DNA from: a virus
Taxonomy: Duplodnaviria; Caudoviricetes
Virus record (IMG/VR): IMGVR_UViG_3300032138_000007
Coordinates: 29,245-93,244 of that record
DNA length: 64,000 bases
Direction: 5' to 3' (one strand)
The number at the start of each line of letters is the position of its first letter. Position 1 is the first letter of the stretch. The position numbers and the translations under genes were made by a program. The notes under the pieces are model-generated. The model had not been told where the DNA came from. It did no database searches and saw only the letters and a list, made by a program, of their open reading frames with translations. Positions 1 through 36,725 of this stretch are shown here, one piece after another.

Positions 1-2757
1 CATCTTCCAATGTTTGTTCAAGATGATGATGAAAATAACGTATTCTTAAAATTTGTAGATATGATTGGTCATCATTTTGATGATATGTGGATATTCATTA
101 AAAGTATGACAGATGTTCATGATAAACGAGATAAATTAACAGAAGGTATAGCAAAAGATTTATTAAAACCAGTAGCACAATCACTTGGTTGGGAAGTTCA
201 TGATGGAAAAGATTTAATATCACTTCCAAGATATATGTTTGGAATGGAACAAACTGGTTCTGAAACTCCTTGGGAATATTCTGGTACTCCTGAACGAGAT
301 ATATCAAGAGAAATTTGGAGTCGTATTATAAACAATATGCCTTATTTCTTAAAAACTAAAGGAACAGTAAGATCACTTAAAGGATTAATAAGTTGTTATG
401 GTATACCATCGAGTATATTACGAGTTATAGAATATGGGGGACCTAAACTATCTGGACAAACACAAGAATATTTCTTAACACGAAAATTTACAAAGGCCTT
501 AAATTTTAAAGGATCAACAAATAATACTTATGTTCAAAATGATACTTGGGAAGCGGTTACACTTGGAGATGCCCCAACAAGTAGACATCCAGATACAGTA
601 GAATTTAGATTTAGAGCGGCAAGTGGTTCGAATCAAGTATTAGTAAGACGAGGTGATGATTGGGCAATTAGATTAAAAGATAATGATGCATCAGATAATC
701 GTGGTTATGTATCTTTTATGTTGTCTGGTTCTGATGGAGAATATAAGGAAGTATCATCTTCTGAATTTCCTGTATATGATAATGAATTTTGGTCTGTAAT
801 GTTGACAAGAACCATGAGTGGTTCATTAAAAAGTTTTGTATCAAGTGATGCATCTAATTTAGATGTTGATTATACTTTATATACTAAGAAGTATGATGCT
901 GGTAGAAGTAAAATTATATATGAATCTCAAAATACTTTGACAATAAGTGGTTCATTTGCAGCATCAGCTTCATATAATTCATCATATACAGGAAGTTCGG
1001 ATACAATTACATTAGGTGGTCCTGAACATGCAACCTTTGGAGAATCATTAAGTGGTTCTATGATGGAATATAGAAATTGGACAACACCACTCAATGTAAC
1101 TTCATTTGATAATCATGTAGCAGCTCCAATAGCATTTGATGGTAATACACCATCTGCATCTTATTTAGATTTAGTTACTCGATATTCATTTGACGATGAT
1201 AAAGATTTAAGTGTTTCTTATAATCAATGGTTTCGAGATGCGTCAGCAGATCAATCTTTTACATCATCAGCCGTTCCGCACAATTATACAAGTGTAATGG
1301 GTGATCATTTTTCATCCGTAGTAGATGAAACAAAGATGAAAGTTCCAAATTTGGGACCAAGTGGTAGGTCATCAAGAAAAGTAAGAATTGAAGCAGATGA
1401 ACTAATTGACAAAGTTGGTAGTCCAGCATTACAATTTGGAAAAAGTATAACAGTACCTGCCTATGATAAAGCTCCAATAGATTCCAATAAACTTGGTATA
1501 TTTTTCTCACCATCTGCAGCAATAGATGAAGATATTATATTATCAATGCCTAATCTTGATTTTGACCAATTCATTGGTGATCCTCGTGACCAATATAAAG
1601 AACAATATACGGGATTAGTAGAGGCTAGAAATTTATATTGGCAAAAATATTCAGGACCTAATAATTTTTGGGATTATTTGAGATTGATAAAATATTATGA
1701 TAGTTCTTTGTATAGACAATTAAAATCATTAGTTCCTGCACGTGCAAATGCAACTATTGGTATATTAATTGAACCTACTATTCTTGAACGAGATAAGATT
1801 ATAACAGGAAAAGAACCTACTGCTACTCCCCACCATCATTTTTCAGAAATTGATATTCATACTACTTATGTTTCTGAAAGTGCAGAATATCAAGTATATG
1901 AAGATAGGGTGAATTGGTCATCACCATTTGGTATTGATAAACATAAAATGGAAACTGGTTCATATATTTCATCATCTGCACAATTTGATACTTTTGAGGC
2001 AGATTTAACTTTTACTGATCCATTTAGAGTTAATTTTTATACTATGGAGAGTGGCTCGAGTGAACAGTATGGATCGGGTGCACATAAATCTGGAAGTGGA
2101 AAATTTGGTTTTGTATCAGCATCAGCCACCGATATAACTCCGTGGGGACTTGAAACAATGCCTTTAAATTTTTATGATCCACATAGATTGAATAATAGAA
2201 CACAAGATAGTGGTTCTGGTGTAGCTATAACAGCAGCTTTTTCTTCATATGAGGCACCGAGTGATACAATAAGTGCAAATGCATCAGGAACGGGTTCATT
2301 TGTAATTAAACATATTTTAGAAAGACCAGCATTATATAATATTGGTGATATAGATACAAGTGGGTGGTATGGTCAAGATTATTATAATTCAACTATACAA
2401 GCAGGAAGTGTTAAAACTATATTTGAAGAAGTAGTTCAACCACGAATAGAAACAAATATAATGTCACAATTTAATGATGAAATAGAGTATTATTATTCAT
2501 CTTCATTAAGTGCTTCAATGCATAAAGCCTACTCATCAAGTTTTGTTCGTAGTGATTTGGATAGTAGATGGGATGAGGCAATAGGAACAGATAGATTATT
2601 TTATACAGGATGTGTTCAAACTGATAGTTCTACAGTAACAGATCCAGAAGAAAGGTGGTTAGATGATACACCCGCAGTAGATATAACTATAGTATCACCT
2701 ACAAAATTAGTAACAACTGATAAAACCACTACTAAGATGGATGTAAAGAATAAATAA
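1..2757 (+). CDS. Large virion structural protein, baseplate wedge-like with LamG-like region (5'-truncated by window edge)
   Basis: Frame is open from base 1 (HLPMF...). KTKGT..SLKGLISCYGIP resembles baseplate wedge/tail gpI-like segments; TVEFRF...FWSVML...GSMMEYRNW resembles a concanavalin/LamG fold; rich in SGS/SAS motifs. Confidence 0.6.
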   Translation, partial: HLPMFVQDDDENNVFLKFVDMIGHHFDDMWIFIKSMTDVHDKRDKLTEGIAKDLLKPVAQSLGWEVHDGKDLISLPRYMFGMEQTGSETPWEYSGTPERDISREIWSRIINNMPYFLKTKGTVRSLKGLISCYGIPSSILRVIEYGGPKLSGQTQEYFLTRKFTKALNFKGSTNNTYVQNDTWEAVTLGDAPTSRHPDTVEFRFRAASGSNQVLVRRGDDWAIRLKDNDASDNRGYVSFMLSGSDGEYKEVSSSEFPVYDNEFWSVMLTRTMSGSLKSFVSSDASNLDVDYTLYTKKYDAGRSKIIYESQNTLTISGSFAASASYNSSYTGSSDTITLGGPEHATFGESLSGSMMEYRNWTTPLNVTSFDNHVAAPIAFDGNTPSASYLDLVTRYSFDDDKDLSVSYNQWFRDASADQSFTSSAVPHNYTSVMGDHFSSVVDETKMKVPNLGPSGRSSRKVRIEADELIDKVGSPALQFGKSITVPAYDKAPIDSNKLGIFFSPSAAIDEDIILSMPNLDFDQFIGDPRDQYKEQYTGLVEARNLYWQKYSGPNNFWDYLRLIKYYDSSLYRQLKSLVPARANATIGILIEPTILERDKIITGKEPTATPHHHFSEIDIHTTYVSESAEYQVYEDRVNWSSPFGIDKHKMETGSYISSSAQFDTFEADLTFTDPFRVNFYTMESGSSEQYGSGAHKSGSGKFGFVSASATDITPWGLETMPLNFYDPHRLNNRTQDSGSGVAITAAFSSYEAPSDTISANASGTGSFVIKHILERPALYNIGDIDTSGWYGQDYYNSTIQAGSVKTIFEEVVQPRIETNIMSQFNDEIEYYYSSSLSASMHKAYSSSFVRSDLDSRWDEAIGTDRLFYTGCVQTDSSTVTDPEERWLDDTPAVDITIVSPTKLVTTDKTTTKMDVKNK

Positions 2758-2778
2758 TGATAAAAACTTAAAAGGATT

Positions 2779-2786
2779 ATATTTAT
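2779..2786 (+). promoter_or_regulatory. ATATTTAT putative phage promoter motif
   Basis: Same 8-mer recurs in most intergenic gaps upstream of gene blocks. Confidence 0.6.
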
Positions 2787-2857
2787 AAGAGAAGAATAAT
2801 AAGTTATATTATATCGAATCTTATAATTAAATAAATCCGTATATAGGAGAAAAACAA

Positions 2858-3730
2858 ATGGGATATTTAAATAATTCAACCAGAATATTAGACGCTATTT
2901 TGACAAAGAAAGGTCGTGAAATTTTGTCAAGTGGTGGAGATTTTGAAGTCACTAAATTCGCACTTGGTGACGATGAGGTTGATTACGCACTATGGGATAC
3001 AACCCATACACAAGGAACGGATTATTATGGTGCAGTGATTGATAATCTACCAGCACTTGAACCGTTTAATGATCCTTCAGAAATTATGAAGTATAAACTT
3101 GTGACAAGACAAGAAGGAACTTCAGCGATGGTTAAATTAAATAATTATACTAATCCTGGAACTAATACAATAACTTTAAATTGGTATAGTGATATTACTT
3201 CAAATTCTGGAATATCAGTTAATCCAAGTTCACCAGATCCAGATAATCCAAATCCACCAGAAAATCCAACTAATGCAGTTAGTTTACTTGGTGGGGGTGA
3301 TAATGCATCTCAAACTTTACATATTTCACGGGCACAAAATAGTACAGATGATGGATATGGAAATTTAGATTTTGATAGTTTGGAACAGGAACCCTATACT
3401 GTAACGGTATTGGATTCAAGTGTTGCAATTTTAGCACCTGAACCATCTGGTGGTCAAATTGATAGAGAGGGTGATATTCAAGTATTAACTCCACAAGATT
3501 TATTGTGGGTCCCCTTTGTTGATAATGTACAACATATATCACAAACACTTAAAGGATGTAGCCAAAGTGATGCGGAAGTTGGACTTAGATTTCCGTTTTC
3601 GAGTGGTCAAAAAGGATTAAGACTTTATCCTAAAAAAATATCATCTTCCACAGAAACTTCAGTTATAGTAACTGGGGATTTATCAGGAGCAGTATTAGAA
3701 TTTAACGTAACAGTTACATATAATTCATAA
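2858..3730 (+). CDS. Structural protein, paralog family A (tail-collar/fibre-attachment N-terminal-like motif)
   Basis: MGYLN..DAILTKKGRE..VTKFALGDDEVDY shared with 3746, 4447, 5124; AGGAG RBS. Confidence 0.65.
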   Translation: MGYLNNSTRILDAILTKKGREILSSGGDFEVTKFALGDDEVDYALWDTTHTQGTDYYGAVIDNLPALEPFNDPSEIMKYKLVTRQEGTSAMVKLNNYTNPGTNTITLNWYSDITSNSGISVNPSSPDPDNPNPPENPTNAVSLLGGGDNASQTLHISRAQNSTDDGYGNLDFDSLEQEPYTVTVLDSSVAILAPEPSGGQIDREGDIQVLTPQDLLWVPFVDNVQHISQTLKGCSQSDAEVGLRFPFSSGQKGLRLYPKKISSSTETSVIVTGDLSGAVLEFNVTVTYNS

Positions 3731-3745
3731 GTAATAAGGTAAATA

Positions 3746-4435: not shown

Positions 4436-4446
4436 AGAGATAAATT

Positions 4447-5114: not shown

Positions 5115-5123
5115 GATAAATAT

Positions 5124-6553: not shown

Positions 6554-7606
6554 ATGAGTAGTGAAACAAGTTTTTTCACCACGTTAAGTGGTGAAGATAA
6601 AAGAACTAATATACCGAGTACTATATCTTCTCCAGTATGGACGGGAGGAACAGCAACGCTAACTTCCTTCTATTCTGGATCTACACAAAGTGGTAGTAGT
6701 GGAAATTATTATTATGATGTGTTTGATAAAGTTGGAAGTGATACTACACGGGTTGTTCAATTCGCAGTAGCTTATGGCCATTACGATGGAAGTGGTTCGT
6801 TATCTACTTCTGCGGGAAATAATCCATCTAAGGCAGTATATCGTCAGTTTAGAAATGTATGTATTAGGAATGCTGGAAGTACAGATAAATTTAAATTTCC
6901 TGAAACTAATTCAACTGAATTTAAAGATGTTTATGTAATAAATGTAAACAGAGCACGATATAGAGAAAAGATAGATCCAGGCAATTGGGAACTTCATTTG
7001 AGTGGAAGTTCACCAACCGCACCAAACCATCCAATAAAATTAATTGACGATAGTGGAGCAACTTCAGATTCATCTGTAAAAGCATCACAGAGAGTTTTTA
7101 ATATAGTGAGTGGTTCAATTGGAACAGGGGCAACGGATATAAATACACAAGCTTCAGCAGAACCTATAGCATCTGGTTCATATGGATTGTTTTATCCTGA
7201 GTTAGGACTTATAATATTAAATGCAACTCGATTAGATATAGCATCTGATTTAAATCTTGGTACATCTGAAACTGCTAATACAAATATGAATAACTCATTG
7301 AAGTTATTTCGGGCAATACAAAGTGGTAGTAAATTTCAAGCACGTAGAGAAGAACAGATAAAATCATCTCACTTTTTCTGTAGGGTAAAATCTGATGAAT
7401 ATAATTTTAGTCAGAATCCAACCTACTTTCAAGGTACAAATGCAGAATTAACTAATACTACTTTTATTACTGATCCTAAGGCATATATAACTACAGTTGG
7501 TCTTTATAATGAACAAAATGAGTTATTGGCAGTTGCAAAGTTAAGTCAACCTTTATTGAAATCGAGAGATAGAGAAGCGGTAATTAAAGTACGATTAGAC
7601 TTTTAG
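6554..7606 (+). CDS. Structural protein, paralog family B
   Basis: NRARYREKIDPGNWELHL and C-terminal YITTVGLYNEQNELLAVAKLSQP..IKVRLDF shared with the next two genes. Confidence 0.65.
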   Translation: MSSETSFFTTLSGEDKRTNIPSTISSPVWTGGTATLTSFYSGSTQSGSSGNYYYDVFDKVGSDTTRVVQFAVAYGHYDGSGSLSTSAGNNPSKAVYRQFRNVCIRNAGSTDKFKFPETNSTEFKDVYVINVNRARYREKIDPGNWELHLSGSSPTAPNHPIKLIDDSGATSDSSVKASQRVFNIVSGSIGTGATDINTQASAEPIASGSYGLFYPELGLIILNATRLDIASDLNLGTSETANTNMNNSLKLFRAIQSGSKFQARREEQIKSSHFFCRVKSDEYNFSQNPTYFQGTNAELTNTTFITDPKAYITTVGLYNEQNELLAVAKLSQPLLKSRDREAVIKVRLDF

Positions 7607-7621
7607 GAAAGGAGATAATAA

Positions 7622-8656
7622 ATGTCTTTTAAAGTCTTTAATCCAAAAGAAAAAGTCGAGAATTTATATAGTACCGTTTCTGAACCTATGTGGTCTGATG
7701 ATTCAGGAACTTTGACTACATTTTTTACTGGATCTGTGCAGAACTCTAATAGTGGTAAATACTATAATGATATATATAAAACTACCGACCAAACCTTAGA
7801 TGTTCAGTTTGCAGTAACATATGGTCATATGCTCGGTTCTGGATCTGAAGGTTCAACAGCGACAGGAACAACAAATCCAACCAAAGGAATATATTCTCAA
7901 TTAAGACAGGTTTTATTACCTGCTCAAACTACTCGGTTTAATTTTAATGGTGGTGGAACTGGAAGTTATGCAAGTGATGATGTTTATGCAATAGCTGTAA
8001 ATAGAGCACGATATAGAGAAAAGATGGATCCAGGAAACTGGGAATTACACTTAACAAGTGGAAGTAACACCATTAATTTAATTGATGATAGTGAAGCAAA
8101 TACAAATCCACTACTTGGAAATGCAAAACGAGAGTTTAATGTAGTTAGTGGTTCAGTAGCAAATGGAGTTTATAGAACTGCAACTTCCGAAGCAACAGCT
8201 ACCAGTTCTGGTTCGTTGGGTTTATTTTATCCTGAACAGGGAATGATTATTTTAAATCCAAACGCTTTAGATTCTGGACCAGATTTTTCATCTTTTGGAT
8301 ATATACAAGCAGTTGTAACAAGTTCTGCTACTAACAATTACAATCATAGAAAATTATTTCATTCTATAAAGAGTGGTTCTTATTTTGCAGCACGGAGAGA
8401 AGAACAAAAACGTAGTTCGTTTTATTTTTGTAATATACTTGGTAGAGAGTTTAATCACAGTCAAAATCCTTCATTTTTTACTGGGTCACATGCAGTTTTA
8501 ACTCATAATTCATTTATCACAGAACCTAGCACTTATCTAACAACCGTTGGTCTTTATAATGATAATAATGAATTATTGGCAGTGGCTAAATTATCTAAAC
8601 CATTCAAAAAAGATCCAAATACTGAAGCACTTATCAAAGTAAGACTTGATTATTAA
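7622..8656 (+). CDS. Structural protein, paralog family B
   Basis: Colinear paralog of 6554-7606 (QFAV.YGH..GSGS, NRARYREK.DPGNWELHL, GLFYPE.G). Confidence 0.65.
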   Translation: MSFKVFNPKEKVENLYSTVSEPMWSDDSGTLTTFFTGSVQNSNSGKYYNDIYKTTDQTLDVQFAVTYGHMLGSGSEGSTATGTTNPTKGIYSQLRQVLLPAQTTRFNFNGGGTGSYASDDVYAIAVNRARYREKMDPGNWELHLTSGSNTINLIDDSEANTNPLLGNAKREFNVVSGSVANGVYRTATSEATATSSGSLGLFYPEQGMIILNPNALDSGPDFSSFGYIQAVVTSSATNNYNHRKLFHSIKSGSYFAARREEQKRSSFYFCNILGREFNHSQNPSFFTGSHAVLTHNSFITEPSTYLTTVGLYNDNNELLAVAKLSKPFKKDPNTEALIKVRLDY

Positions 8657-8667
8657 AGGAGATTCCC

Positions 8668-9789
8668 ATGTTTAAGGATATATCTCCAGATGATAGATCA
8701 ATAAAAGAATTTAAAACTTATAAACAATTCACTTTTACAAATTCTGATACTGGAAGTGGTGTTTTTGGTCTTGAAGGTATAAGTGGAAGTGCACATTATT
8801 TCCTAACGGGTTCGGCGGCATCTCAAAGTTTTGGGGTTTTCAACGAAGCTTCTAAAAGTTTCGGACATTCTTGGGATACTTGGTATAGTTGTGGTACTTT
8901 CTTTAAACTTCCTTTATATTTTCAAATAAATAATTCGTATTATGAGTATGATAAAGTTCCTAATAAGAAGTCTAATATAACGAGATTTCCAGTATACACT
9001 CCGAGTAGGTGGGAAAGAAAATGGCCACATGGTAGAGAAGCTTCAGATTGGGGTACTATAGTTCCACGAGAATTACATGATACAGTAAATGTTATAACAA
9101 TTCCACAACAATTTTTTGGTGAAGAAATAAAACCACTTTCAGTTAAAATTCTTGACGATAGCGGGGCAACAACTTTAGATATAAGAGATGATGGACACGG
9201 ACAACTTTATGATTATTTTTATTCTTCAAGTTTTGCAGCAGGAACACCGAGTGGTACACCACGAACAGGAGGTTCTATAGGAAATGTTTTTTATGAACAC
9301 GGAATCATTACAGTTACAGATACAGGTTCAAGATATACGAGTGTTGGACTTGGAACTGGTGGTGATGGTTGGTCAGTAAGATTTCAAGCAACAAAAACTT
9401 CTTATGAATATCAATATCAATGTAACATAGCAGAATATCAATTTACTGGCACTACAAATCCAAGTGCAGTTATTGGTAGAAGTGGTAGTATTGCTGTTCC
9501 AGCAGGTTCCAGATATAATTATAATGGAAAGTTTGAGGCGGACGAGGCACAATATGAAAGTGCTTTTGATTTAGTAATGCCACCAGCAAGTAGATCATAC
9601 GATACGTCATATAGTGGAGATGGTGGATTGTATCATAATTTCACAACACATTCAGAATTTGGGACATACGTCACAAATATAGGTTTATATAACGATACAA
9701 ATGAGTTATTGGCCATCGCAAAACTATCAAATCCAATTAAAAATGATAAAGATTTACCAATTTCATTTTTAGTTCGTTTTGATTCGTAA
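8668..9789 (+). CDS. Structural protein, paralog family B (divergent)
   Basis: GNVFYEHGII; YVTNIGLYNDTNELLAIAKLSNP..VRFD. Confidence 0.6.
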   Translation: MFKDISPDDRSIKEFKTYKQFTFTNSDTGSGVFGLEGISGSAHYFLTGSAASQSFGVFNEASKSFGHSWDTWYSCGTFFKLPLYFQINNSYYEYDKVPNKKSNITRFPVYTPSRWERKWPHGREASDWGTIVPRELHDTVNVITIPQQFFGEEIKPLSVKILDDSGATTLDIRDDGHGQLYDYFYSSSFAAGTPSGTPRTGGSIGNVFYEHGIITVTDTGSRYTSVGLGTGGDGWSVRFQATKTSYEYQYQCNIAEYQFTGTTNPSAVIGRSGSIAVPAGSRYNYNGKFEADEAQYESAFDLVMPPASRSYDTSYSGDGGLYHNFTTHSEFGTYVTNIGLYNDTNELLAIAKLSNPIKNDKDLPISFLVRFDS

Positions 9790-25500: not shown

Positions 25501-28500
25501 GAAGTGGTTCAGCAGATGAGATAGCTCATTTTGGTAGTGATTATAATAAAATAGCAAGTTGGTCTATAAGTCCTACTCAAATTTCAAGTGAAAATCTTAT
25601 ATTAGATTCGGGTGGAACTATGCAAACATCAGATTTTGCAAGTGGTGTTCAGGGTTGGAGAATAACTTCTGCTAATAATGGTGAAGCAGAATTTGAAAAG
25701 GTTACGATTAGGGGAACATTATCAACTACGGTATTCGAAAAAGAATCTGTAAATGCTGTTGGTGGTCAATTATATGTAGCAAATTCAACTATTTATACTG
25801 GTTCTGCACAAATTTCAGCAACAGAAACAACTATGAGTGTAGCAAATGTAGGTGGATTTGCCGCTGGAGAAATATTATCTGCAAAGAAAGTTTCTGATAC
25901 TGGTTTTCAAACGGAATATCTCTATGTTCAAAGTGCTTCAAGGGATGTTCCATCAAGTGATAAGAACTTTATGGGTAAATTATATGTAGTTCGTGGATAT
26001 AGTGGTTCATTACCAGGAACACATGATACTGGTTCACTTGGAGATTCTGCACAATCTGCACAATCATATGAAAATGGTCAAGTAATTGTATCTACTGGTA
26101 AAGTTGGAACTGGATATGTAAGAATAAATGCAAATCCAAATGATTCCACAACACCTTATATTGATATTGTTGAAAGAACTGGTTCTGCAATTTATGATAT
26201 TTCATTAAAGGCAAGACTTGGTGATTTAAGTGGATTGTCAAGTGGATTACTTTATGGTAATTCAAGTCCTGGTTTTGGATTATTTACAGAGAATGTATTT
26301 TTACAAGGTGGTATAACTGCTACAACTGGTTCATTTACTGGTAAAGTTCATATTAGAACGGATGCCTCAAATCAAATAATAATGGGAACTGATGTTGATG
26401 GTGGAACTAATGATGGATTTTATTTAAACGCTAACAATTATTGGTATACTAATGATAAATTTAGAATTGGTGATACAAATTATTATTTAAAATGGGATAG
26501 TTCTAATATAGAAATTGTTCCACAAAAATTTGAATTAAATGCAGGTAGTGGTGATATACAAATTTCATCAACTCAAAAATCTATGTCGTTAGGTAATGGT
26601 GATATACATTTTCATTCTCCAAATTCAACTACATCTTATATGAGACTTGGTTCGAATACATCCAAGGCAATTTATATTACTGGTTCATCTACTGAGGGTG
26701 TAATTCGAAGTGGTAAAACATCTGTAACTTCAAATACTGCAGGATTTTGGTTAGCAAATACTGATGGTGATCAAGAATTTGTTGTTGGTGATGCAACAGA
26801 TTATATTAGATATAGTGGAAGTGCCGTAGATGTTCAAACACGGGCATTTGAATTAGATGCAAATAATGGAGATTTACAAATTTCTTCTACTCAAAGGTCT
26901 ATGAGTTTAAATGATGGTAAAATTGTTTTATCGGGTTCCACAGCACCGTTTATACAAATTGGAAATAGTGCTAATTATTCTATAAAACTCCAGACAGATG
27001 GTACAGACCAATTTATGACTATGGGAAGTAAAACAAGTTTTACACATGAGGGAAGTGGAACTGGTGGTATTCTTATTGGAATGGATAATGATAATCCACA
27101 AGCAGAATTCGTATCTGATGATTTACAAACTTATTTTATCTTCGATGGAGATTCTGGTTTAGATGTTAAAACAACTGCATTTGAATTAGCAGCCAATACA
27201 GATGACTTACAAATATCTTCTACTCAAAAATCCATGTCGTTGGCAAGTGGTAAGGTTTTACTTGACGGTGGTGGGAATTATGGATATATACGAGTTGGTG
27301 GTAGTGTATCTTTAGCTGGTGCCATTCATATTAGTGGTTCAACAGCTACAAGTATAATAAGAGCGGGTAAAAGTTCATATAGTGATACGACAAATGCTGG
27401 ATTTGTATTAGAAAAAACTGCAACAGATTCAAAATTTTATGTAGGTGATACAAGTGATGGTAGTTTTATAAAATTCGATAGTGATACTGGAATTGAAATA
27501 GGAACACAGAAATTTGAATTGGCAGCTAATACAGATGATTTACAAATTTCTTCTACTCAAAAATCTATGTCGTTAGCGGGTGGTAATGTATTATTAGATG
27601 GTTCACAAACTGCTGGATATATAAGAGTTGGTTCAAATGCAACTACTCGTGATAATATTCAATTAAGTGGTTCTAATACATTAGCAGTAATTAAAGCTGG
27701 TGTTAGTGGTTCATATGCAGATGCAGTGTCGAGTGGAGATAATGGATTTATATTAGAAAGAAATCTAACTTCAACGAAGTTTCATCTTGGTAATGCAACA
27801 GAATACATAAGATTCGATGGAAGTGATATAGATATATCAGCAGATTCATTAAGTATAACTGCTTCTAATGTTAATATTACTGCAGCAGACGGTATGGAAG
27901 TAGATGCACCTGATTTTGAGATAAGTACTGCACATAAGTCAATGAGTTTGGGTTATACTACAAATACTGCATATGGTGTTACTATGGTTGGGGCAGGTAA
28001 TTCTTATATATCTTTTGGACCAAAGACAAGTCCAAATTTCCAATTATATTCTGCTGGAGCAACTGAAAATTATTTAAAAATAGGAAGTCAAACCTTTGGT
28101 GGTACTCAAGGTGGTATTATACTTGGAGAGGCAAGTAGTGGAGTTTATAAATTTGAAATTTATAAAGACGCCGATGAGTATTTTAGATTTGCAACTGATG
28201 GTGGTGGGTTAGATATACGAACTCTTAGTATGAGTTTGGAAACTCCAGGATTAAAAATACATGGATATGAAACATTAGGAGCATCAAATTATATAGCACT
28301 TGGAAGTGCAACATCGGCAACGGCTGGTGAAGGATATTGGGCTGACGGTGGTGGTAGTTTTAGAGTTGGAACAGCAACAAGTGGAGTTGCAAGTCCATCA
28401 TATATGTATTTCAATTCTGGTGATGATAGTTTAACAGTTAAAACTGATACATTAATACTTGATACAGCCAAGATAGATATTGATTCACGACATGGTGGAA

Positions 28501-31325
28501 TAATTGCACTTGGAGCAAGTTCAGCATCATTAGCAGATTTAAGTGGAGCTGGTATATTTCTTAGTGGTAGTGGTGAATTTAATTTTGAATATGATCAAAA
28601 TAATTATTTTAGACGCAAAGATACAAGTGTTGATATAAAATCTGGTCAATTTGGTTTAAAAACAAGTACTTTAATTATTAGTTCTTCTCAAAATAGTGGT
28701 ATGATAACAATGGGTTCAACACCAAACACAAGTGTAGATGGAACAAACTCTGGTACTTATATGGACGGAACTGGTGATTTCTTGTCATATGGAAATGCAG
28801 CAAATTATTTCAGAAAAGACGGAACATCCCTTGATATAAAAGCAGGAACATTTGATTTAGATGCAACTACTCTTATTATGGACAGTGCACTCAATCACGG
28901 TGTTATACGATTAGGAGCGAGTGGAGGACCAGCTAGCGTATCTGCATCTACCGCTGGTATTTATTTAGACGGACATGGTAATTTACAAGCATATGGAAAT
29001 GCAACAAACTATATTAGAAAATCTGGAACTTCTCTTGATATAAAGGCCGATACTTTTGATTTAGACGCAACTACTATCATTATGGATAGTGCTCTTAATC
29101 ATGGAGTTATAAGATTAGGTGCAAGTGGAGGACCGGCTAACGTATCCGCATCTACTGCTGGTATTTATTTTGATGGACATGGTAATTTCCAGGCATATGG
29201 TGGGGCAGCAGATTATATTAGAAAATCTGGAGCATCTTTAGAAGTGAAAGTTCAAAACTTTGCATTAAGTGGTACAAGTGGAACTTTATCACTTGGAACT
29301 TTAGCTAACGCAAGTGATACTGCAGATACTTCAACAGGATTTTATGTAGATTCAAGTGGAAACTTCTTGGCAAAATCAGCTGCAACCAGTGGAACAGGAT
29401 ACATTCAAGCGAGTGGTGGTGATGTTGTTATAAGAGCAGGAAATTTTGGTTTAGGAACAGCAACTATGGTTGTTAGTAGTTCCGTTAATAGTGGAACTAT
29501 AAGAATGGGTTCTAATGGAGGTCCATTAACTGCAACTGCTGCTACTCAAGGTATTTACATGGATGGAACTGGGGCGTTTCAAGTTTATGGTGATTCAAAA
29601 AATTATTTGAGAATTAATGGTGGAACAGTTGATATATTAACAGATGAAATAACAATTGCAACAGCAGGAACTAATAAAGTTAAATTATTAGCAGATGGAA
29701 CAAACACACCAACATTTGCAATGGGAGCAACTTTAAATACAAGTATTAGTGGAACTAATAAAGGTGTTTTCATGAATGGTGAAGGTGATTTCTTACTTTA
29801 TGGAAGTGCCACAAATTATTTTAAATTTGATGCAACTGCAGCGTCCATTGACATAAAATCAGATACATTTGATTTAGACGCAACGGGTGAAGGATCCGGA
29901 ATGATTTTGGAATCTGCTACAAATAAGGGTAAAATAGCACTTGGATCAACACCACCTTCACATGCATCGAGTAGTACAGGGTTTTATGCAGATGGTGCTG
30001 GTACTATGATGGTTGGAAATTCAAGTGGTAATAGAATGCAATACTTAGCTGATGGTACTATTTATATGAAATCTTCTACTTTCAACTTAGATGCAACCAC
30101 ACTAATCCTTGATTCTGCAGCAAACAATGGTAAAGTTCAATTAGGACCAAGTGGTGGTCCTGGTAGTCCAACTGGAACAAGTAATGCCGGTGCATATCTT
30201 GATGGACAAGGTAGATTTAATTTTGTCGGTAATGCAAACAATTATATAAGATTTAATGCAACAGGATTAGAAATAAACACTACTTATTTTGATGTAAATA
30301 CTGCCGGTGAAATTACTGCAACACAAGGTGCAATTGGTGGATGGTATATTACAAGTACTGCAATTCAAACTACTGCACCTGGTGCACCTAAAGCGGCTGC
30401 TGATATGACTCTGAGTAATACTGGTTATATTGCAATGGGAAGTACAACTCCACAAACATTTGGTTCTGGTGGTGTTCAATTAGGGACATATGGTAGCAGT
30501 GCTGCTAAGTTTTTAGTAGCCAATGCAGCGGATACTGCAGGACATATAAAATTTGATTCAGCAGATGGACAGTTACATATAAGTTCTTCAACGGTTTTAA
30601 TTGGAACATCTGGAAGTGCTGTGGGTGGATATCAACCTGCAGGAGCATTTGTAAGTATGTCAGCTGAGGGTCAGATGGAAATAAGTTCATCTGGAGTTCA
30701 TATTAAACCTGGAGGAGATGCAGTTTTTGCTGGTGGAGATATAACTTTTGAACAAGGTGGAGATATTGCAAGTACAAATTATTTAATTGAACGTTCAAGA
30801 TTATTCGGGTCAGGAGGTGATTCCCCAACGGTTCAGGCTAGCGGAACGGCTGATACATTAACAACTGGTACTGGTCAAGCAGCAAAATATTCCGCAGAAG
30901 ATGGAATAGTAATGATAACAAATACTTCAGCGAATATATGGACACTATCACGAGATGTTTATATGCAAGATTTAACCGTTAATAGTGGTGTGTATCTTGA
31001 AACAGCTGGATATAGAATATTTTGTAGAGGAACTTTAACTAATAATGGATGGATACGAAATGATGGCCATGATGGAACTTCTGGAACTGGTAATAGTGCA
31101 GGTGCTGGTGGAGATGGTGGCCACGGTGGTTCACTAGCCGCAGGAACAGACGGTGGAAATGGTGGTCGTGGTGGTTATGAAGCGGGTGGAACTCATGGTG
31201 GAGGCGGAGGCGGAGCTGGTGGTACTGGTGGTGCCATATTAATTTCCGCAAGATACATCGCTGGTGACGGAGGAATCCGTGTTACAGGGGGTGATGGTGG
31301 TAATGGTGGAACATTACAACCATAA
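19542..31325 (+). CDS. Giant (3927 aa) tail fibre/spike-like virion protein
   Basis: G.IGGW/F beta-repeats, about twelve ~100-aa ISS..SMSLG repeats, GEAEFEKVTIRG and PYIDI tail-protein motifs, Gly-rich C-terminus; GGAG RBS with TTG start. Confidence 0.8.
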   Translation: MAVPKREAEFLGLRNLDVFKEDTTFDSTYFRVLECPPILTQGKSSFLIGGSNRLKSGIDIKMELIKDDSDEILYLQPVLGHLEGDLRRVSIEVYEDVKPGPYTLYIVGEIDSTVENVPPEWQGAYNVRWSKQITVNGMGTNIQPIYFYKQPSISVSEIFTGFVEIPSSSATPIYLTGSGEPRQGLSSIPPVENVTVGGSGVSTYPTLDFANKAKLSIIEENKPLVKLSGKHGLIGAQGQQVQTMSPVPNDFVITVSGDSSVNSLYVGHDITINNPQVDTSKFTLQSYHSVPTVYSSSVMKVLNNTSFVPKDVFYVYDNRTSPPTLEPAPLDSTYPISASYLTLPTQTTSSINLLSFGDIQISDLKTFSGDVHKIKIYAKSEGSLGDFQLIYDAPVESYQVLQDKSEDTLLNNMGYFLDTSRLQNYWEMYQGEDGGESTTLNYDATYINDSMKISGSNKEYGDTLRVQNKTAVDFIAGNLYSFKAKVYGISKAKKDIDGNIISAASLEVLAKGDAFEKVETTSTNWGDVKLSVPDFPTGANQYDFGIVEGSFLADNTATGYLQFKVDSGEWYVSDISLKAATDTAFNPDYVRLKAPVPPLLQRPDRVRFLVEFYDVNNNIADSVVFTEPFDFQGANINIGGTDNILSGSMFIGNALAAGIEMAGVSSAFVRSMGYHGFSSGSGKGNNAGDGTYSGFLMWSGSVLTDSGDDYKGVGLELVGHSESYFRFRTDPSELDIRADSFFVGSENSQYISGSGSQIEISSSNFHVSSSGDVSMTGTITADAGNIGDWKIIDGKLSGSNATLDAVGAALYHTTLGPGSDTSAAFDQLRNEYYIDFTPSEGETATAGKYYVKFGPNFSVSESGVLFASGAVFEGTITASAGSIGGASIESRSLAYSPFWRISSSADQTDPASFISSSAFKVSAGGNITGSEVLFTGGTIGGFSINETQLYSGTDILLDSNNKRLSLADGSVFLDGDLSDGTIYVGRSVTANLSTPSGFGARFKGNGNFILVSGSGQYIRSVGDGLEFVSQNVNISGSSVKIYTPEFFLGGSGQYISGSNSNIEISSSKFYVDTDGNVTGSDVRFTGGRIAGWVISGNKLLSANNSMRINGHTSTPKITVHSHTFENEGVQLGYNSSGKIGFYAGDGANDYIHYHEDDGLDIKTAVFKLDTAQFDIDSSTASGKLSMGSTPPSAYNSGTGIYMDGTGKLLIGAHNGDRIQFDGTNFTVQVGSLELDANNIEISSTNASMSLGEGNILLDGANSRVKVGSSATKQITLQGHADYGYIATGKTSATSTTAGFWLANNDTDPEFAVGDATNYIKFDGGDLDIASEKLEISASTFQVSTAQASMSLGHNSTYPLGRLMMEGLGTPTFKMGPDVDVISMTTGSGIYMDGDGNFKFGDNDGQVKFQNGSFSITGSDVAIQVTDINVKANGFELSSQQASMSLGTNQQWKAYGGSANPYMSIGMGGSGSYGSDGLWLAYNDTIGKPRVSFVGSTGHFKFTGTDLDVKTGTLALAASNIQLSSAQASMSLGGVPGAAANILLDGGNSKIEVGSANKVTIQGGTTDNYMVMGSKTSFTHFDQSTQGIIIGMDSTVPKIEITKNSANYLSFDGTNFDIKLSQGFELDATNIEISSTNASMSLGGSNDIILDGANNKITVGSGNSITIQGGAADNYMVMGSKSSFTHEGSGTAGIIIGMDATNPQAEFVKSSTDYFIFDGGSGVDIKTTNFNLDANTGDLQISSTHKSMSLGDGKVKLQGASSPYMVLNSGSNAITLKTDGTDSFMVMGSKTDFDEYDKSTVGIILGMDTAVPKFEMAKSGDDYLRWDSTDGLDLRTTKMEVSASNVQISSTQASMSIGDPTSTGGAIVLQSQGTDKMLKFGNKATFDQDAIAGLIMGINGDTSNAPEFDYTVGTGNDQYVRMLTSGIFMKVPNFKLDTALLDIDSATSRIDIYDNSGGVDGSDLRVRIGEIDPTAGNQYGLVVYDGTGSGSADEIAHFGSDYNKIASWSISPTQISSENLILDSGGTMQTSDFASGVQGWRITSANNGEAEFEKVTIRGTLSTTVFEKESVNAVGGQLYVANSTIYTGSAQISATETTMSVANVGGFAAGEILSAKKVSDTGFQTEYLYVQSASRDVPSSDKNFMGKLYVVRGYSGSLPGTHDTGSLGDSAQSAQSYENGQVIVSTGKVGTGYVRINANPNDSTTPYIDIVERTGSAIYDISLKARLGDLSGLSSGLLYGNSSPGFGLFTENVFLQGGITATTGSFTGKVHIRTDASNQIIMGTDVDGGTNDGFYLNANNYWYTNDKFRIGDTNYYLKWDSSNIEIVPQKFELNAGSGDIQISSTQKSMSLGNGDIHFHSPNSTTSYMRLGSNTSKAIYITGSSTEGVIRSGKTSVTSNTAGFWLANTDGDQEFVVGDATDYIRYSGSAVDVQTRAFELDANNGDLQISSTQRSMSLNDGKIVLSGSTAPFIQIGNSANYSIKLQTDGTDQFMTMGSKTSFTHEGSGTGGILIGMDNDNPQAEFVSDDLQTYFIFDGDSGLDVKTTAFELAANTDDLQISSTQKSMSLASGKVLLDGGGNYGYIRVGGSVSLAGAIHISGSTATSIIRAGKSSYSDTTNAGFVLEKTATDSKFYVGDTSDGSFIKFDSDTGIEIGTQKFELAANTDDLQISSTQKSMSLAGGNVLLDGSQTAGYIRVGSNATTRDNIQLSGSNTLAVIKAGVSGSYADAVSSGDNGFILERNLTSTKFHLGNATEYIRFDGSDIDISADSLSITASNVNITAADGMEVDAPDFEISTAHKSMSLGYTTNTAYGVTMVGAGNSYISFGPKTSPNFQLYSAGATENYLKIGSQTFGGTQGGIILGEASSGVYKFEIYKDADEYFRFATDGGGLDIRTLSMSLETPGLKIHGYETLGASNYIALGSATSATAGEGYWADGGGSFRVGTATSGVASPSYMYFNSGDDSLTVKTDTLILDTAKIDIDSRHGGIIALGASSASLADLSGAGIFLSGSGEFNFEYDQNNYFRRKDTSVDIKSGQFGLKTSTLIISSSQNSGMITMGSTPNTSVDGTNSGTYMDGTGDFLSYGNAANYFRKDGTSLDIKAGTFDLDATTLIMDSALNHGVIRLGASGGPASVSASTAGIYLDGHGNLQAYGNATNYIRKSGTSLDIKADTFDLDATTIIMDSALNHGVIRLGASGGPANVSASTAGIYFDGHGNFQAYGGAADYIRKSGASLEVKVQNFALSGTSGTLSLGTLANASDTADTSTGFYVDSSGNFLAKSAATSGTGYIQASGGDVVIRAGNFGLGTATMVVSSSVNSGTIRMGSNGGPLTATAATQGIYMDGTGAFQVYGDSKNYLRINGGTVDILTDEITIATAGTNKVKLLADGTNTPTFAMGATLNTSISGTNKGVFMNGEGDFLLYGSATNYFKFDATAASIDIKSDTFDLDATGEGSGMILESATNKGKIALGSTPPSHASSSTGFYADGAGTMMVGNSSGNRMQYLADGTIYMKSSTFNLDATTLILDSAANNGKVQLGPSGGPGSPTGTSNAGAYLDGQGRFNFVGNANNYIRFNATGLEINTTYFDVNTAGEITATQGAIGGWYITSTAIQTTAPGAPKAAADMTLSNTGYIAMGSTTPQTFGSGGVQLGTYGSSAAKFLVANAADTAGHIKFDSADGQLHISSSTVLIGTSGSAVGGYQPAGAFVSMSAEGQMEISSSGVHIKPGGDAVFAGGDITFEQGGDIASTNYLIERSRLFGSGGDSPTVQASGTADTLTTGTGQAAKYSAEDGIVMITNTSANIWTLSRDVYMQDLTVNSGVYLETAGYRIFCRGTLTNNGWIRNDGHDGTSGTGNSAGAGGDGGHGGSLAAGTDGGNGGRGGYEAGGTHGGGGGGAGGTGGAILISARYIAGDGGIRVTGGDGGNGGTLQP
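28788..29195 (+). repeat. Tandem 204-bp (68-aa) internal duplication
   Basis: YGNA.NY.RK.GTSLDIKA.TFDLDATT.IMDSALNHGVIRLGASGGPA.VSASTAGIY.DGHGN.QA occurs twice. Confidence 0.9.
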
Positions 31326-32437: not shown

Positions 32438-33568
32438 ATGGCACTTCAAGACGGATTTAAAGTATTAAGTTTGACCATTATAGACGGTGGAGGCGGATGG
32501 GGTGGAGATACAACTGGTAAGTTAGTTATGAGATCACCTGGATCACAATCTATTTATGTTGGTAGTGGTTTTACAGGAACTTGGGAATCAGACCCAGGTG
32601 GAGTAATTGATGGAACTGCAATAACTGCAGCAGGTAAGAATTATTCATCTGGTTCTTGGGCATTTTCAACACATGGACGGGCAATTCCTGGAGAATTTTG
32701 TAGTATTGGAATTATGGGAACAGGATCAGGTTCATTAATAATACCAAAAATAGGACAAGATGCTTCAATCTCATTTAATCAATTAAATACAGAAAGGGGA
32801 GTTGGGGCTACCAGTGAAGCTTCTATTCACCAACTATATGAAGATTTTTCATCAATAGCAGGTTCAGTTCATACGGATGTAACAGGTAAACCTAATTTTG
32901 ATTGGTTTCAAGGTGGTCCCAGGTCGGCTTCTGGTGTAGATCCAGGAGAAGGCGGAATATATCAATCTCATCCAATTAGATTAGATGAATTTTATGGTTC
33001 TAATTATTCACAATATGGTGGTTTGGGTTGTCTTGGAATAGGAACACCTATAACAATGGCAGATGGTTCTACAAAGAACATAGAAGATATTAATATAGGA
33101 GAGTGGGTAAGAGCAGCAACCGTTCCTGGTATGCCATTAGACTTTGATGAAGAAAATACTTGGTCAGTTTGGGAAGGAACACCACACGGAAACCCACCCG
33201 GTTCAGTATGGGCAACTGCATATTATGATATACAGGAAACTAATCGAGTTACACCAGCAAGTGCATCAGTTATGGATATATATTTTGATTGGTATGAAAA
33301 TTATTATTTGATAAATAATTCTTTAAAGGCAACATTTGAACATCCATTTTTTGTGTTAAGAGATGGTAATTATCATTTTAAAACAACAGCTAGTTTGTTA
33401 CCTGGTGATAAATTATTTAAAACAGATAATGAATTTGAACAGATAGAAACGATTGAATTTATAAATGAACCATTAGAAACTGTCAATTTAAATGTAGAAC
33501 CTTTAGATGTTTATTTTGGAGGTGGTTATTTAATGCACAATGTACATGGAAAAGAAGCTGAAAGTTAA
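32438..33568 (+). CDS. Fibre-associated protein with C-terminal Hint (intein-like) domain
   Basis: CLGIGTPITMADGSTKNIEDI..TFEHPF..LMHN at 33029-33541. Confidence 0.85.
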   Translation: MALQDGFKVLSLTIIDGGGGWGGDTTGKLVMRSPGSQSIYVGSGFTGTWESDPGGVIDGTAITAAGKNYSSGSWAFSTHGRAIPGEFCSIGIMGTGSGSLIIPKIGQDASISFNQLNTERGVGATSEASIHQLYEDFSSIAGSVHTDVTGKPNFDWFQGGPRSASGVDPGEGGIYQSHPIRLDEFYGSNYSQYGGLGCLGIGTPITMADGSTKNIEDINIGEWVRAATVPGMPLDFDEENTWSVWEGTPHGNPPGSVWATAYYDIQETNRVTPASASVMDIYFDWYENYYLINNSLKATFEHPFFVLRDGNYHFKTTASLLPGDKLFKTDNEFEQIETIEFINEPLETVNLNVEPLDVYFGGGYLMHNVHGKEAES

Positions 33569-34110: not shown

Positions 34111-34113
34111 AAT

Positions 34114-35128: not shown

Positions 35129-35152
35129 TAGTGTTAAACACACACAACGGGA

Positions 35153-35194
35153 CGCGTAGTTTACGACAAGTCGTCTTTTTTACGCGAATTTTTT
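35153..35194 (+). promoter_or_regulatory. GC-rich leader hairpin followed by a U-tract (attenuator/terminator-like)
   Basis: CGCGTA(35153-58)/TACGCG(35181-86) outer stem, ACGA-caag-TCGT inner stem, then AATTTTTT and the RBS. Confidence 0.5.
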
Positions 35195-35207
35195 AAGGAG
35201 AATTTTT

Positions 35208-36725
35208 TTGGCAACACCACCCGCAGGAACAGCCTTATCATTAGGAAAATTAGGAAGAGCAACTGCTGTAGACAATTCTGATTATACATCTGCAACGAGT
35301 TTGAATGACTGTGCACGAGATAGTGGGACAGCCGCAACTAATTTGAGTAATTTTTATATAGGTTCGGTTGATAGCACTTTAGATGGTTATCCATATGTGG
35401 ATGAACAAACTAATGAAACATATGAATTAACTTTTACTAATGCAAATTCATTATTTGCATCTCGTATAGCAGCAAGAGCTGATAACTTCACTTGGACTAC
35501 CAGTAATTCATCATTATTTGATATGTCTGGTACTGAAGATGTTACTACTCAATTTAATGCAGGTGCACTTGCTGATACAAGTACACATACTTCAAAATCA
35601 TTTGAAGCTAATTTAGTTACAGACTCCGATTTTAATAATTGGTCAAGTGCTAATTTACTTGGTGATTGGACAGAGAGTGGTGGAACAGTAATTTCAAGAA
35701 AAGATATAACTGGATTTTCAACAAGACCATCTGGTTCAAATGATTATATGGTTCAATTTGATACATTAAATGGATACATAGAACAATCATTTACAGTTAA
35801 AGGAAATTCTACTTATCAGATTAAAGCAATAGCAACTTCTTCTGATGCGGGACAGGGAACAATAGATATGTATGTTAGTGGTGCATATACTCAATTAACT
35901 TGGAACGGAATAACTGGACCGGCAGGTACATATCACCAAACAAGAGATGATTTTTATACAAGTGGTTCGGTAGGAGTAGATCAAACTTTAAAAGTAAGAT
36001 TTACAGCAGTATCTGCTTCTGTTAAACCATTGTTAGATTATGTAACTTTCCAAAGATGGGAAGGTGCACATTTTAGTGATACAAATGTAACTATTACAGG
36101 AAAGTATCACGATGACGGACAGAGTGATGGATTTAACGACCACGCAACAAGATATAATACTGCTATAAGTAAAACTGTTGAGATACAAGATACATATGGT
36201 GGTCTTGCAATTGCTTGTTTTTTACCAGGAACTTTAATACAAATGGCAGATGATACTTCCAAACCAATAGAAGAAATAAATGTTGGGGATGAAGTGTTAT
36301 CATTAGATTTACCTGGATTACCAGATGAAGATTTAGGATATATCGAATGGAAATCTTATACTATGAGGCCAATGGATGAAGAAGATTTGGAAAATTTAAT
36401 ATCAAAAAATAAAAAATCTGCATTTGTAGAGAATTTATTTTATGATTATATGAGTGGATATTATAGTATAAATAATGGTTATTTAAAAGTAACTGCAGAA
36501 CATGACCTTTTTTCATATTCAGACGGAAAATGGAGATGGAATACTGCAAGTGAATTACAAAAAGATATGAAATTATTTGGTTATAATGGAGAGGTAATTA
36601 ATATAGATTCTATAGAATGGGTAAGTGGTGAAGTAGAAGTTATCAATTTTGATGTAGAACCATTAGATGTTTATTACGCGGGTGGATTATTGGTTCATAA
36701 TAAGGGATCAGACTCAGATCCGTGA
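35208..36725 (+). CDS. Fibre-associated protein with CBM-like domain and C-terminal Hint domain
   Basis: NLVTDSDFNNW..YIEQSF..PLLDYV is CBM4/9-like; CFLPGTLIQMAD..TAEH..LVHN at 36216-36701. Confidence 0.85.
   Translation: MATPPAGTALSLGKLGRATAVDNSDYTSATSLNDCARDSGTAATNLSNFYIGSVDSTLDGYPYVDEQTNETYELTFTNANSLFASRIAARADNFTWTTSNSSLFDMSGTEDVTTQFNAGALADTSTHTSKSFEANLVTDSDFNNWSSANLLGDWTESGGTVISRKDITGFSTRPSGSNDYMVQFDTLNGYIEQSFTVKGNSTYQIKAIATSSDAGQGTIDMYVSGAYTQLTWNGITGPAGTYHQTRDDFYTSGSVGVDQTLKVRFTAVSASVKPLLDYVTFQRWEGAHFSDTNVTITGKYHDDGQSDGFNDHATRYNTAISKTVEIQDTYGGLAIACFLPGTLIQMADDTSKPIEEINVGDEVLSLDLPGLPDEDLGYIEWKSYTMRPMDEEDLENLISKNKKSAFVENLFYDYMSGYYSINNGYLKVTAEHDLFSYSDGKWRWNTASELQKDMKLFGYNGEVINIDSIEWVSGEVEVINFDVEPLDVYYAGGLLVHNKGSDSDP

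What the first reader, a model, noticed from the sequence alone, without database searches (positions are those of the whole stretch)
1..36725. [S/T]-[G/A/S]-S motif saturates virion proteins but not enzymes: candidate glycosylation sequon
Seen: ISGS, LSGS, VSGS, FTGS, ISAS, ISSS and similar recur densely in 1-2757, 6554-9789, the giant fibre and both Hint proteins, yet are nearly absent from primase, SbcCD and the island enzymes. Known: animal proteoglycans are primed on Ser-Gly and extended by a GT7 enzyme using sugars downstream of UDP-glucose dehydrogenase. Inference: the phage glycosylates these sites with its own island, producing a proteoglycan-like coat.
Basis: partly seen in the sequence, partly recalled or inferred. 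Interest (0 to 1): 0.8.

Follow-up and report, generated by a model that had tools for sequence, protein, structure and literature searches.

The report
Ser-Gly-Ser excess in phage tail proteins
The outer tail, baseplate and fibre proteins of this uncultured ocean phage carry the ordered tripeptide Ser-Gly-Ser about five times too often, at fixed tight turns that are older than the phage's sugar-enzyme island, so it is more likely a structural turn than a sugar-attachment code, though no chemistry settles this.

Summary
The enrichment is real, but it is narrower than described. The core motif is Ser-Gly-Ser, with TGS and SGT weaker. In eight tail-module proteins I count 58 against 12.5 expected. 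The order matters: SSG occurs 16 times and GSS 12. The excess acts at protein level and survives local shuffling. Enzymes sit at their compositional expectation (5 against 5.1), so they are not depleted.

The trait belongs to the lineage. It is present in Flavobacterium phage immuto, Microcystis phage Mel-JY01 and 80 IMG/VR loci (1099 against 200). It is absent in T4, PA5oct and RM378.

In the 344-aa paralogue family the order-specific excess lies in seven fixed windows at strand ends, hairpins and a helix cap. One site persists even in RM378.

The motif does not track this GT7-LamG island. Relatives carry different glycan clusters. A GT4 gene conserved in them was not found here or in 12 other GT7-LamG contigs.

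The proteoglycan analogy fails on the features I could test: flanks are hydrophobic, no GT14 was recognised, and the SDR is not UXS-like.

Best reading is an inherited structural turn idiom (about 0.5). A glycosylation sequon remains possible (about 0.3). This scan has reported the same motif on other phage DNA at least 27 times.

The parts
1..2757 (+). C-terminal 918 aa of a 2316-aa baseplate/tail protein (genome 25051-32001). It has 8 SGS and 21 wide-motif hits in the window part.
   Evidence: It is syntenic with the large proteins that follow the baseplate wedge in immuto, Mel-JY01 and G002.
448..1260 (+). LamG/ConA-like jelly-roll domain inside that protein. It carries five SGS plus one TGS, placed directly after strands or in the hallmark bulge (LSGSMMEYRNW).
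   Evidence: AF2 model with pLDDT 80 and pTM 0.83. Foldseek gives probability 1.0 to CBA120 TSP2, PAPP-A, agrin and neurexin LG domains. In the alignment A2 the [ST]-G-S has an invariant G and an invariant final S.
6554..7606 (+). Tail-module paralogue 1 (350 aa), with 7 SGS against 0.4 expected.
7622..8656 (+). Tail-module paralogue 2 (344 aa), with 5 SGS plus 3 TGS. This is the family representative that I modelled.
   Evidence: AF2 pLDDT is 87.5. A small N+C-terminal beta-sandwich weakly resembles phage baseplate, neck and tail-tip parts (Z<=5.7).
8668..9789 (+). Tail-module paralogue 3 (373 aa), divergent, with 2 SGS.
19542..31325 (+). Giant fibre (3927 aa). It has 21 SGS against 7.4 expected, mostly in the context h-x-h-SGS-x-x-x-h-x-h within repeated units.
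32438..33568 (+). Hint-domain fibre-associated protein 1. SGS is 2 against 0.4 (marginal).
35208..36725 (+). Hint-domain fibre-associated protein 2. SGS is 2 against 0.4 (marginal).
36793..64000 (+). Soluble glycan-synthesis island that runs to the contig end. It holds a GT2, three GT7-LamG enzymes, a nucleotide-sugar dehydrogenase, an SDR, a carbamoyltransferase, radical-SAM enzymes, methyltransferases, DUF6071 proteins and a 2OG oxygenase. SGS is at expectation here.
   Evidence: No segment has a 19-residue Kyte-Doolittle mean above 1.6.
41534..47396 (+). Three GT7-LamG paralogues (41534-43003, 43407-44888, 45888-47396), with a 130-aa ORF (43015-43407) and a 327-aa ORF (44890-45873) of unknown family lying between them. 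The LamG domains of the three GT7 enzymes contain no [ST]G[ST].

Best explanation
SGS is an inherited structural idiom of the Ser-rich, beta-rich outer tail proteins of this phage lineage. It forms a three-residue connection: hydrophobic strand residue, then Ser-Gly-Ser, then hydrophobic residue. This terminates a strand, makes a tight hairpin or caps a helix.

The Gly supplies the backbone freedom. I infer that the flanking Ser hydroxyls cap the turn in the manner of ST-turns. The excess arises because a limited number of such fixed positions are conserved, and are multiplied in paralogues and internal repeats of the fibre proteins. It does not arise because the motif is being scattered over surfaces.

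Shown: the statistics, the positional conservation and the secondary-structure context. Inferred: the hydrogen-bond role of the Ser residues.
For: Seven fixed windows in the 344-aa family hold 200 SGS against 36 expected. Outside them SGS, SSG and GSS are 30, 21 and 25, so there is no order-specific excess.

The central Gly is at least 90% conserved at the main sites, G74 and G177.

At sites 287 and 146 the first position interchanges among S, T, D and N, as expected of Asx/ST-turn positions. Asp cannot accept a sugar.

DSSP on two confident models puts the motif at strand ends, in a two-residue hairpin (146-148), at a helix C-cap (251-253) and in the LamG bulge.

Flanking residues are hydrophobic on both sides.

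Site 176, V-S-G-S, is kept in RM378 at 26% identity, although that phage has no overall excess.

The excess persists across lineages with different glycosyltransferase sets. A GT4 gene that is 44-62% identical among relatives is undetected in this contig and in 12 GT7-LamG contigs.
Against: The fold itself does not demand Ser flanks. The LamG domains of the phage's own GT7 enzymes use E-G-Q, K-G-S and A-G-D at the equivalent bulge and have no [ST]G[ST] at all.

T4 and PA5oct tail proteins show no excess, so a purely generic beta-turn preference is not enough.

Ser is preferred over Thr very strongly at sites 73 and 176. That would also fit a Ser-specific transferase.

Every complete relative that has the excess also carries a cluster of glycosyltransferase genes; they were not checked for membrane or export genes.

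I could not export model coordinates to verify the hydrogen bonds or the solvent exposure.
Confidence: 0.5

Rival explanations
1. SGS, with its final or first Ser, is an O-glycosylation acceptor at hairpin tips. It would be modified in the cytoplasm by phage-encoded soluble glycosyltransferases. In this lineage those are the GT7-LamG island; in relatives they are a cluster built around GT4 and GT2-like enzymes. The result would be sugar-coated tail fibres.
For: The motif is ordered and cooperative, and it is confined to outward-facing tail proteins. The island is soluble, lacks export genes and lies next to the fibre genes. All four complete relatives with the excess carry clusters of glycosyltransferase genes. 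The sites lie in strand-loop-strand contexts. Ser is much more frequent than Thr. This parallels TibC/Aah, which heptosylate Ser but not Thr at S-G and S-A in beta-helix loops (PMC4358343). Virion glycosylation by phage enzymes is known in mycobacteriophages (Freeman 2023, as cited in PMC12619734).
Against: There is no chemical evidence. No single transferase is shared by all phages with the excess. The GT2-like enzyme is missing from the complete genome G001. GT4a is undetected in the GT7-LamG lineage. There is no order-specific gain of the motif outside fixed structural positions. D and N substitute at some sites. One site is conserved in RM378, which has no excess.
Confidence: 0.3
2. The conserved SGS and GSGS loops are functional sites of another kind. 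They could be receptor- or ligand-binding loops, for example anion- or sugar-binding 'nests' such as YGHxxGSGS. They could also be contact or recognition points for fibre assembly and chaperones.
For: Conservation of G-S-G-S at site 73 (78, 65, 79 and 69 of 83) and of V-S-G-S at site 176 is stronger than that of the surrounding sequence, in a family only 35-50% identical. The proteins lie in the receptor-binding end of the tail module. An intramolecular chaperone domain is present nearby, at 31973-32437.
Against: The same tripeptide recurs in unrelated folds: a LamG domain, the novel central domain of the paralogues and the fibre repeats. That is hard to reconcile with one specific binding function.
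Confidence: 0.12
3. The excess is a by-product of composition or mutation. Candidate causes are Ser/Gly-rich low-complexity stretches, AGT<->GGT transitions, or a DNA-level motif.
For: Tail proteins are Ser-rich, 11.5% against 5.9%. AGT (Ser) and GGT (Gly) differ by one transition, and both are preferred codons.
Against: Whole-protein and 12- or 30-residue block shuffles are exceeded. Same-composition permutations SSG and GSS are 4-5 times rarer. The DNA words occur only in frame 0. A Ser/Gly-rich 1236-aa protein of G002 has 18 GSS but only 4 SGS.
Confidence: 0.03

Closest known systems
Bacterial autotransporter heptosyltransferases (BAHT: TibC/TibA, Aah/AIDA-I; PMC4358343)
   Same: Soluble enzymes there hyper-glycosylate many serines, not threonines, in short loops between strands of a beta-rich surface adhesin. 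The mapped sites read N-S-G-G and T-S-A-A. Here the motif is Ser-rich rather than Thr-rich, sits in strand-loop-strand contexts of surface fibre proteins, and is accompanied by soluble sugar enzymes.
   Different: I did not look for a BAHT homologue, and none was recognised. The enzymes here are GT7-LamG, a GT2 and unclassified proteins. No modification has been shown. The substrate is a phage tail, not an autotransporter.
Virion glycosylation of mycobacteriophages (Freeman et al. 2023, as summarised in PMC12619734)
   Same: Phage-encoded glycosyltransferases modify the phage's own structural proteins.
   Different: There the glycans sit at the C-termini of capsid and tail-tube subunits. Here the candidate sites are internal turns of baseplate and fibre proteins. 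Capsid and sheath of a relative are not significantly enriched.
Proteoglycan linkage region (Ser-Gly xylosylation, then GT7 beta4GalT7); from general knowledge
   Same: Both involve a Ser-Gly dipeptide. GT7-family enzymes and a UDP-sugar dehydrogenase are encoded here.
   Different: Flanks are hydrophobic, not acidic. No GT14 xylosyltransferase was recognised. The SDR is far closer to PDB 6vo6 (3e-109) than to UDP-glucuronate decarboxylase (1e-15).
ST-turn / Asx-turn and Gly-containing two-residue beta-hairpins (general protein-structure knowledge)
   Same: A Ser or Thr (or Asp/Asn) is followed by Gly at the end of a strand. The Gly is conserved. S, T, D and N interchange at some sites.
   Different: Such turns are not normally five-fold over-represented as one exact tripeptide across a whole set of proteins. 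They do not normally show so little Thr either.

Membership tests
Proteoglycan-type Ser-Gly xylosylation site | Acidic residues flanking Ser-Gly | tested here: not met
   Positions -1 and -3 are mostly I, L, V, T, G and Y. D and E are rare on both sides.
Proteoglycan-type Ser-Gly xylosylation site | GT14 xylosyltransferase and a UDP-xylose synthase encoded | tested here: inconclusive
   No GT14 hit appeared in Pfam scans of the island, but four island proteins have no family at all. The SDR's best solved relative is 6vo6 (3e-109); UXS enzymes score only about 1e-15.
Mycobacteriophage-type virion glycosylation | Phage-encoded glycosyltransferases | tested here: met
   Three GT7-LamG enzymes and a GT2.
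Mycobacteriophage-type virion glycosylation | Glycans on C-terminal extensions of capsid and tail-tube subunits | not testable with these tools
   Capsid and tube genes are not on this 47%-complete contig. The motif here is internal, not C-terminal.
Any protein glycosylation system | Sugar chemically attached to the proposed residues | not testable with these tools
   This needs mass spectrometry or glycan staining of virions.
BAHT-like hyper-glycosylation of beta-rich surface proteins | Ser-specific acceptors in strand-loop-strand contexts | tested here: met
   At site 73, Ser:Thr is 65:0 and 69:4. At site 176 it is 70:2 and 57:17. The motif lies at strand ends and hairpins.
BAHT-like hyper-glycosylation of beta-rich surface proteins | A BAHT-family (TibC/Aah-like) heptosyltransferase gene | not tested
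   I ran no dedicated search. Pfam scans of the island gave no such hit.
Structural ST-turn / Gly hairpin | Conserved Gly, position at a strand or helix end, and S/T/D/N interchange at position i | tested here: met
   G74 and G177 are at least 90% conserved. The DSSP context is given. Site 287 has T34, S17, D17 and N4; the site-146 hairpin, whose alignment register varies, has S38, T8, D7 and N4 at the residue before reference position 146.
Structural ST-turn / Gly hairpin | Side-chain to main-chain hydrogen bond of the Ser | not testable with these tools

The most novel reading that the evidence does not exclude
SGS is a Ser-specific O-glycosylation sequon at hairpin tips, read by soluble phage glycosyltransferases. 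Abundant aquatic myoviruses would then coat their baseplates and fibres with self-made glycans. In this lineage a GT7-LamG island would have replaced the GT4-based cluster of its relatives.
Probability: 0.3. Interest if true: 0.8.

Novelty: new variant of a known kind. Interest (0 to 1): 0.5.

Why it matters
If the motif is only structural, it is a clean and unusually strong example of a lineage-specific turn idiom. It could then serve as a marker for outer tail proteins in a very abundant group of aquatic phages; the 344-aa family alone has 2122 clusters at 50% identity.

If it is a sequon, virion glycosylation would extend from mycobacteriophages to widespread marine and freshwater myoviruses. 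The large export-less sugar islands in these genomes would then have a defined target.

This genome adds one useful constraint. The excess is fully retained in a lineage in which the GT4 gene conserved in its relatives was not detected. That weakens the idea that this gene reads the motif.

Tried and rejected
- **Composition alone.** Rejected by whole-protein and block shuffles and by same-composition permutations.
- **DNA-level motif.** Rejected. The codons vary, and the DNA words occur only in frame 0.
- **Generic property of myovirus fibres.** Rejected by T4, PA5oct and RM378.
- **'The motif tracks the GT7 island'.** Rejected. It occurs in relatives without GT7-LamG.
- **'G002 has no glycan genes'.** This was my own early reading, corrected after and checked. 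G002 has a GT4 pair, a GT2-like enzyme and UGDH- and SDR-like genes at about 72-87 kb.
- **One GT-A enzyme shared by all phages with the excess.** Not found. The GT2-like gene is absent from the complete genome G001.
- **Scanning 26 more IMG/VR records for GT7C.** Uninformative, because all are fragments.
- **Fold of the 344-aa protein.** Foldseek against the PDB gave nothing. VIA-align gave only Z<=5.7 for a small beta-sandwich.
- **PHROGs and Pfam.** Both gave nothing for most tail proteins.
- **Literature.** A search for Mel-JY01 and for 6VO6 gave nothing usable, and the Freeman 2023 paper is not held.
Full report
**What the window is**

The window is bases 29245-93244 of a 93,244-bp IMG/VR virus record that CheckV estimates as 47% complete. 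All genes lie on one strand, and GC is about 0.29-0.36.

The upstream part holds a T4-gp6-like baseplate wedge, a 508-aa protein and a 2316-aa protein. The last 918 residues of the 2316-aa protein are window 1-2757.

The nearest cultured relatives are Flavobacterium phage immuto and Microcystis phage Mel-JY01. Rhodothermus phage RM378 is more distant. Gene order is the same in these phages: baseplate wedge, large protein, two or three about-350-aa paralogues, then fibres.

The motif-rich proteins are therefore outer baseplate and fibre proteins of a myovirus.

Yes, but it is sharper and narrower than written.

- The degenerate motif occurs 134 times against 59 expected in eight tail proteins.
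- An unbiased scan of all tripeptides puts SGS first by a wide margin: 58 against 12.5, or 37 against 5.1 without the giant fibre.
- Same-composition permutations are not enriched: SSG 16 and GSS 12. In all other proteins the three are equal, at 5, 7 and 8.
- TGS (24) and SGT (23) are about two-fold above their permutations. GSG (31) exceeds GGS and SGG. SAS (18) is no commoner than SSA (16), so it is not clearly order-specific; SSS has no permutation to compare.
- The excess survives shuffling inside 12- or 30-residue blocks.
- It is twice what independent SG and GS preferences would give, 58 against 31.
- Codons vary, and the encoding DNA words occur almost only in frame 0, so selection acts on the protein.
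- Enzymes are not depleted. They sit at their lower compositional expectation, 5 against 5.1.
- The two Hint proteins are marginal.

**How far does it extend?**

The same excess is seen in the tail modules of immuto and Mel-JY01. It is also seen across 80 IMG/VR loci that carry the paralogue family. Those loci hold 1099 SGS against 200 expected, with SSG 235 and GSS 221. The per-locus ratio ranges from 2 to 10 with a median of 5.8. At 4.6-fold, this phage is ordinary for its lineage.

Controls show the trait is lineage-specific, not a general property of fibres:

| Phage | SGS observed | SGS expected |
|---|---|---|
| T4 baseplate and fibres | 5 | 4.4 |
| PA5oct (MS-verified virion proteins) | 3 | 3.6 |
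| RM378 | no excess | – |
| LR756508 (484-kb uncultured phage) | 8 (weak) | 3.3 |

In the 97%-complete relative G002 the significant proteins are a few large Ser-rich tail proteins. Portal and terminase have none. Capsid and sheath have 2 each, which is not significant.

**Where do the motifs sit?**

The 344-aa paralogue belongs to a large unnamed family. It has 5496 hits among the scored candidates and 2122 clusters at 50% identity.

In 83 diverse members there are 2.9 SGS per protein against 0.38 expected. Nearly all lie at seven recurrent positions:

- Site 73 reads G-S-G-S, conserved in 78, 65, 79 and 69 of 83 sequences.
- Site 176 reads V-S-G-S, with 70, 77 and 57 (plus 17 Thr) of 83.
- Site 287 shows S, T, D and N interchanging at the first position. 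So does the residue before reference position 146, in a hairpin whose alignment register varies.

Inside these seven windows there are 200 SGS against 36 expected. Outside them SGS, SSG and GSS are 30, 21 and 25, so there is no order-specific excess.

An AlphaFold model (pLDDT 87.5) places the motifs at the last residue of a strand plus a two-residue hairpin (146-148), at strand ends (36, 73, 176), before a strand (196) and at a helix C-cap (251-253).

Site 176 is conserved in RM378, and sites 73 and 176 in LR756508.

**A second protein gives the same picture**

Window residues 150-420 of the first ORF fold as a LamG/ConA jelly roll (pLDDT 80; Foldseek probability 1.0). Five SGS and one TGS lie there. 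Three SGS and the TGS lie immediately after a strand or helix, one spans a strand end, and one lies in the LamG hallmark bulge. In that bulge the [ST]-G-S is essentially invariant among 27 homologues.

The LamG domains fused to the phage's own GT7 enzymes use E-G-Q, K-G-S and A-G-D at that bulge. They contain no [ST]G[ST] at all. The fold therefore tolerates other residues, and the Ser flanks are a property of the tail proteins.

**The island and the glycosylation idea**

Window 36.8-64 kb encodes a GT2, three GT7-LamG enzymes, a nucleotide-sugar dehydrogenase, an SDR, a carbamoyltransferase, two radical-SAM proteins, methyltransferases, DUF6071 proteins and a 2OG oxygenase. No protein there has a hydrophobic segment of transmembrane strength. 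A cytoplasmic target, possibly virion proteins, is therefore plausible.

The motif, however, does not follow this island:

- GT7-LamG matches only 23 IMG/VR loci, while the tail family matches at least 600 stretches.
- G002 lacks GT7-LamG, the carbamoyltransferase and the rest of the island.

Relatives are not sugar-free, though. G002, immuto, Mel-JY01 and the complete genome G001 each carry a cluster with an adjacent pair of GT4 genes. GT4a is 44-62% identical among them. All except G001 also have a GT2-like enzyme, and G002 also has UGDH- and SDR-like genes nearby.

Earlier notes of this scan led me to that pair. I could confirm it in the relatives. I found no trace of it in this contig or in 12 other GT7-LamG contigs that together amount to about 4.6 genome equivalents. 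The positive control rang strongly.

So the excess is retained in a lineage where that pair was not detected. Either a different enzyme reads the motif here, or no enzyme does.

**The proteoglycan analogy**

- Flanks are hydrophobic rather than acidic.
- No GT14 was recognised.
- The SDR is 3e-109 to PDB 6vo6 ('putative sugar-nucleotide epimerase/dehydratase') and only about 1e-15 to UDP-glucuronate decarboxylases.

From memory only, 6vo6 is a Campylobacter heptose-pathway dehydrogenase. I could not verify this.

The closer mechanistic analogue for a sequon reading is the autotransporter heptosyltransferase family. It modifies Ser, not Thr, at S-G and S-A in beta-helix loops (PMC4358343).

**Verdict**

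The motif is real, ordered, acts at protein level and is specific to the lineage.

Three lines of evidence favour an inherited structural turn idiom (about 0.5):
- the excess is concentrated at fixed, Gly-conserved strand-end positions that predate the island;
- there is no diffuse order-specific gain;
- it is independent of which transferases are present.

Several facts keep a Ser-specific glycosylation sequon alive (about 0.3):
- the excess is restricted to outward-facing proteins;
- Ser is strongly preferred over Thr;
- equivalent cytoplasmic LamG domains lack the motif;
- every complete relative carries a cluster of glycosyltransferase genes.

Only chemistry on virions of a cultured relative can decide between them.

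Noticed in passing
window 2858-5696: Four consecutive proteins (290, 229, 129 and 190 aa) all match the same about-90-residue N-terminal segment of one G002 gene at 46-56% identity. Their C-termini differ. This looks like a cassette of alternative fibre or tip proteins sharing one attachment domain.
   Followed up: no
window 61194-62138: The SDR is extremely close (3e-109 over its full length) to the solved bacterial protein 6vo6/6vo8, 'putative sugar-nucleotide epimerase/dehydratase'. It is far from UDP-xylose synthases. This suggests a recent bacterial origin and a sugar route other than UDP-xylose.
   Followed up: partly
window 5709-6086, 31343-31939 and 31973-32437: There are two very Gly-rich small proteins (30% and 28% Gly, collagen-like). 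A Peptidase_S74 intramolecular-chaperone domain protein lies just after the giant fibre. GC rises to 0.42 at 30-32 kb.
   Followed up: no
G002:72429-73613 (L126), immuto about 59 kb (L006), Mel-JY01 about 89 kb (L007): A soluble GT2-like enzyme with a long C-terminal extension is conserved: 45% identity between immuto and G002, 23-25% to Mel-JY01. It gives weak Glyco_transf_7C hits. It is absent from the complete genome G001 and from this contig.
   Followed up: partly
G001:195272-196708; Mel-JY01 83429-84929: The conserved GT4a gene carries an in-frame TGA in G001. In Mel-JY01 it is split into two ORFs (198 + 313 aa). This may be decay, a frameshift or recoding of an otherwise highly conserved gene.
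   Followed up: no
G002:137449-141159: This 1236-aa Ser/Gly-rich protein has 18 GSS but only 4 SGS. It is an internal control showing that Ser/Gly richness alone does not produce SGS.
   Followed up: no
window 47396-50183: Two adjacent soluble proteins of 450 and 481 aa have no Pfam match. A PDB sequence search on the 450-aa protein also found nothing. Their sizes resemble the GT4 pair of relatives, but phmmer and tblastn detect no similarity.
   Followed up: partly
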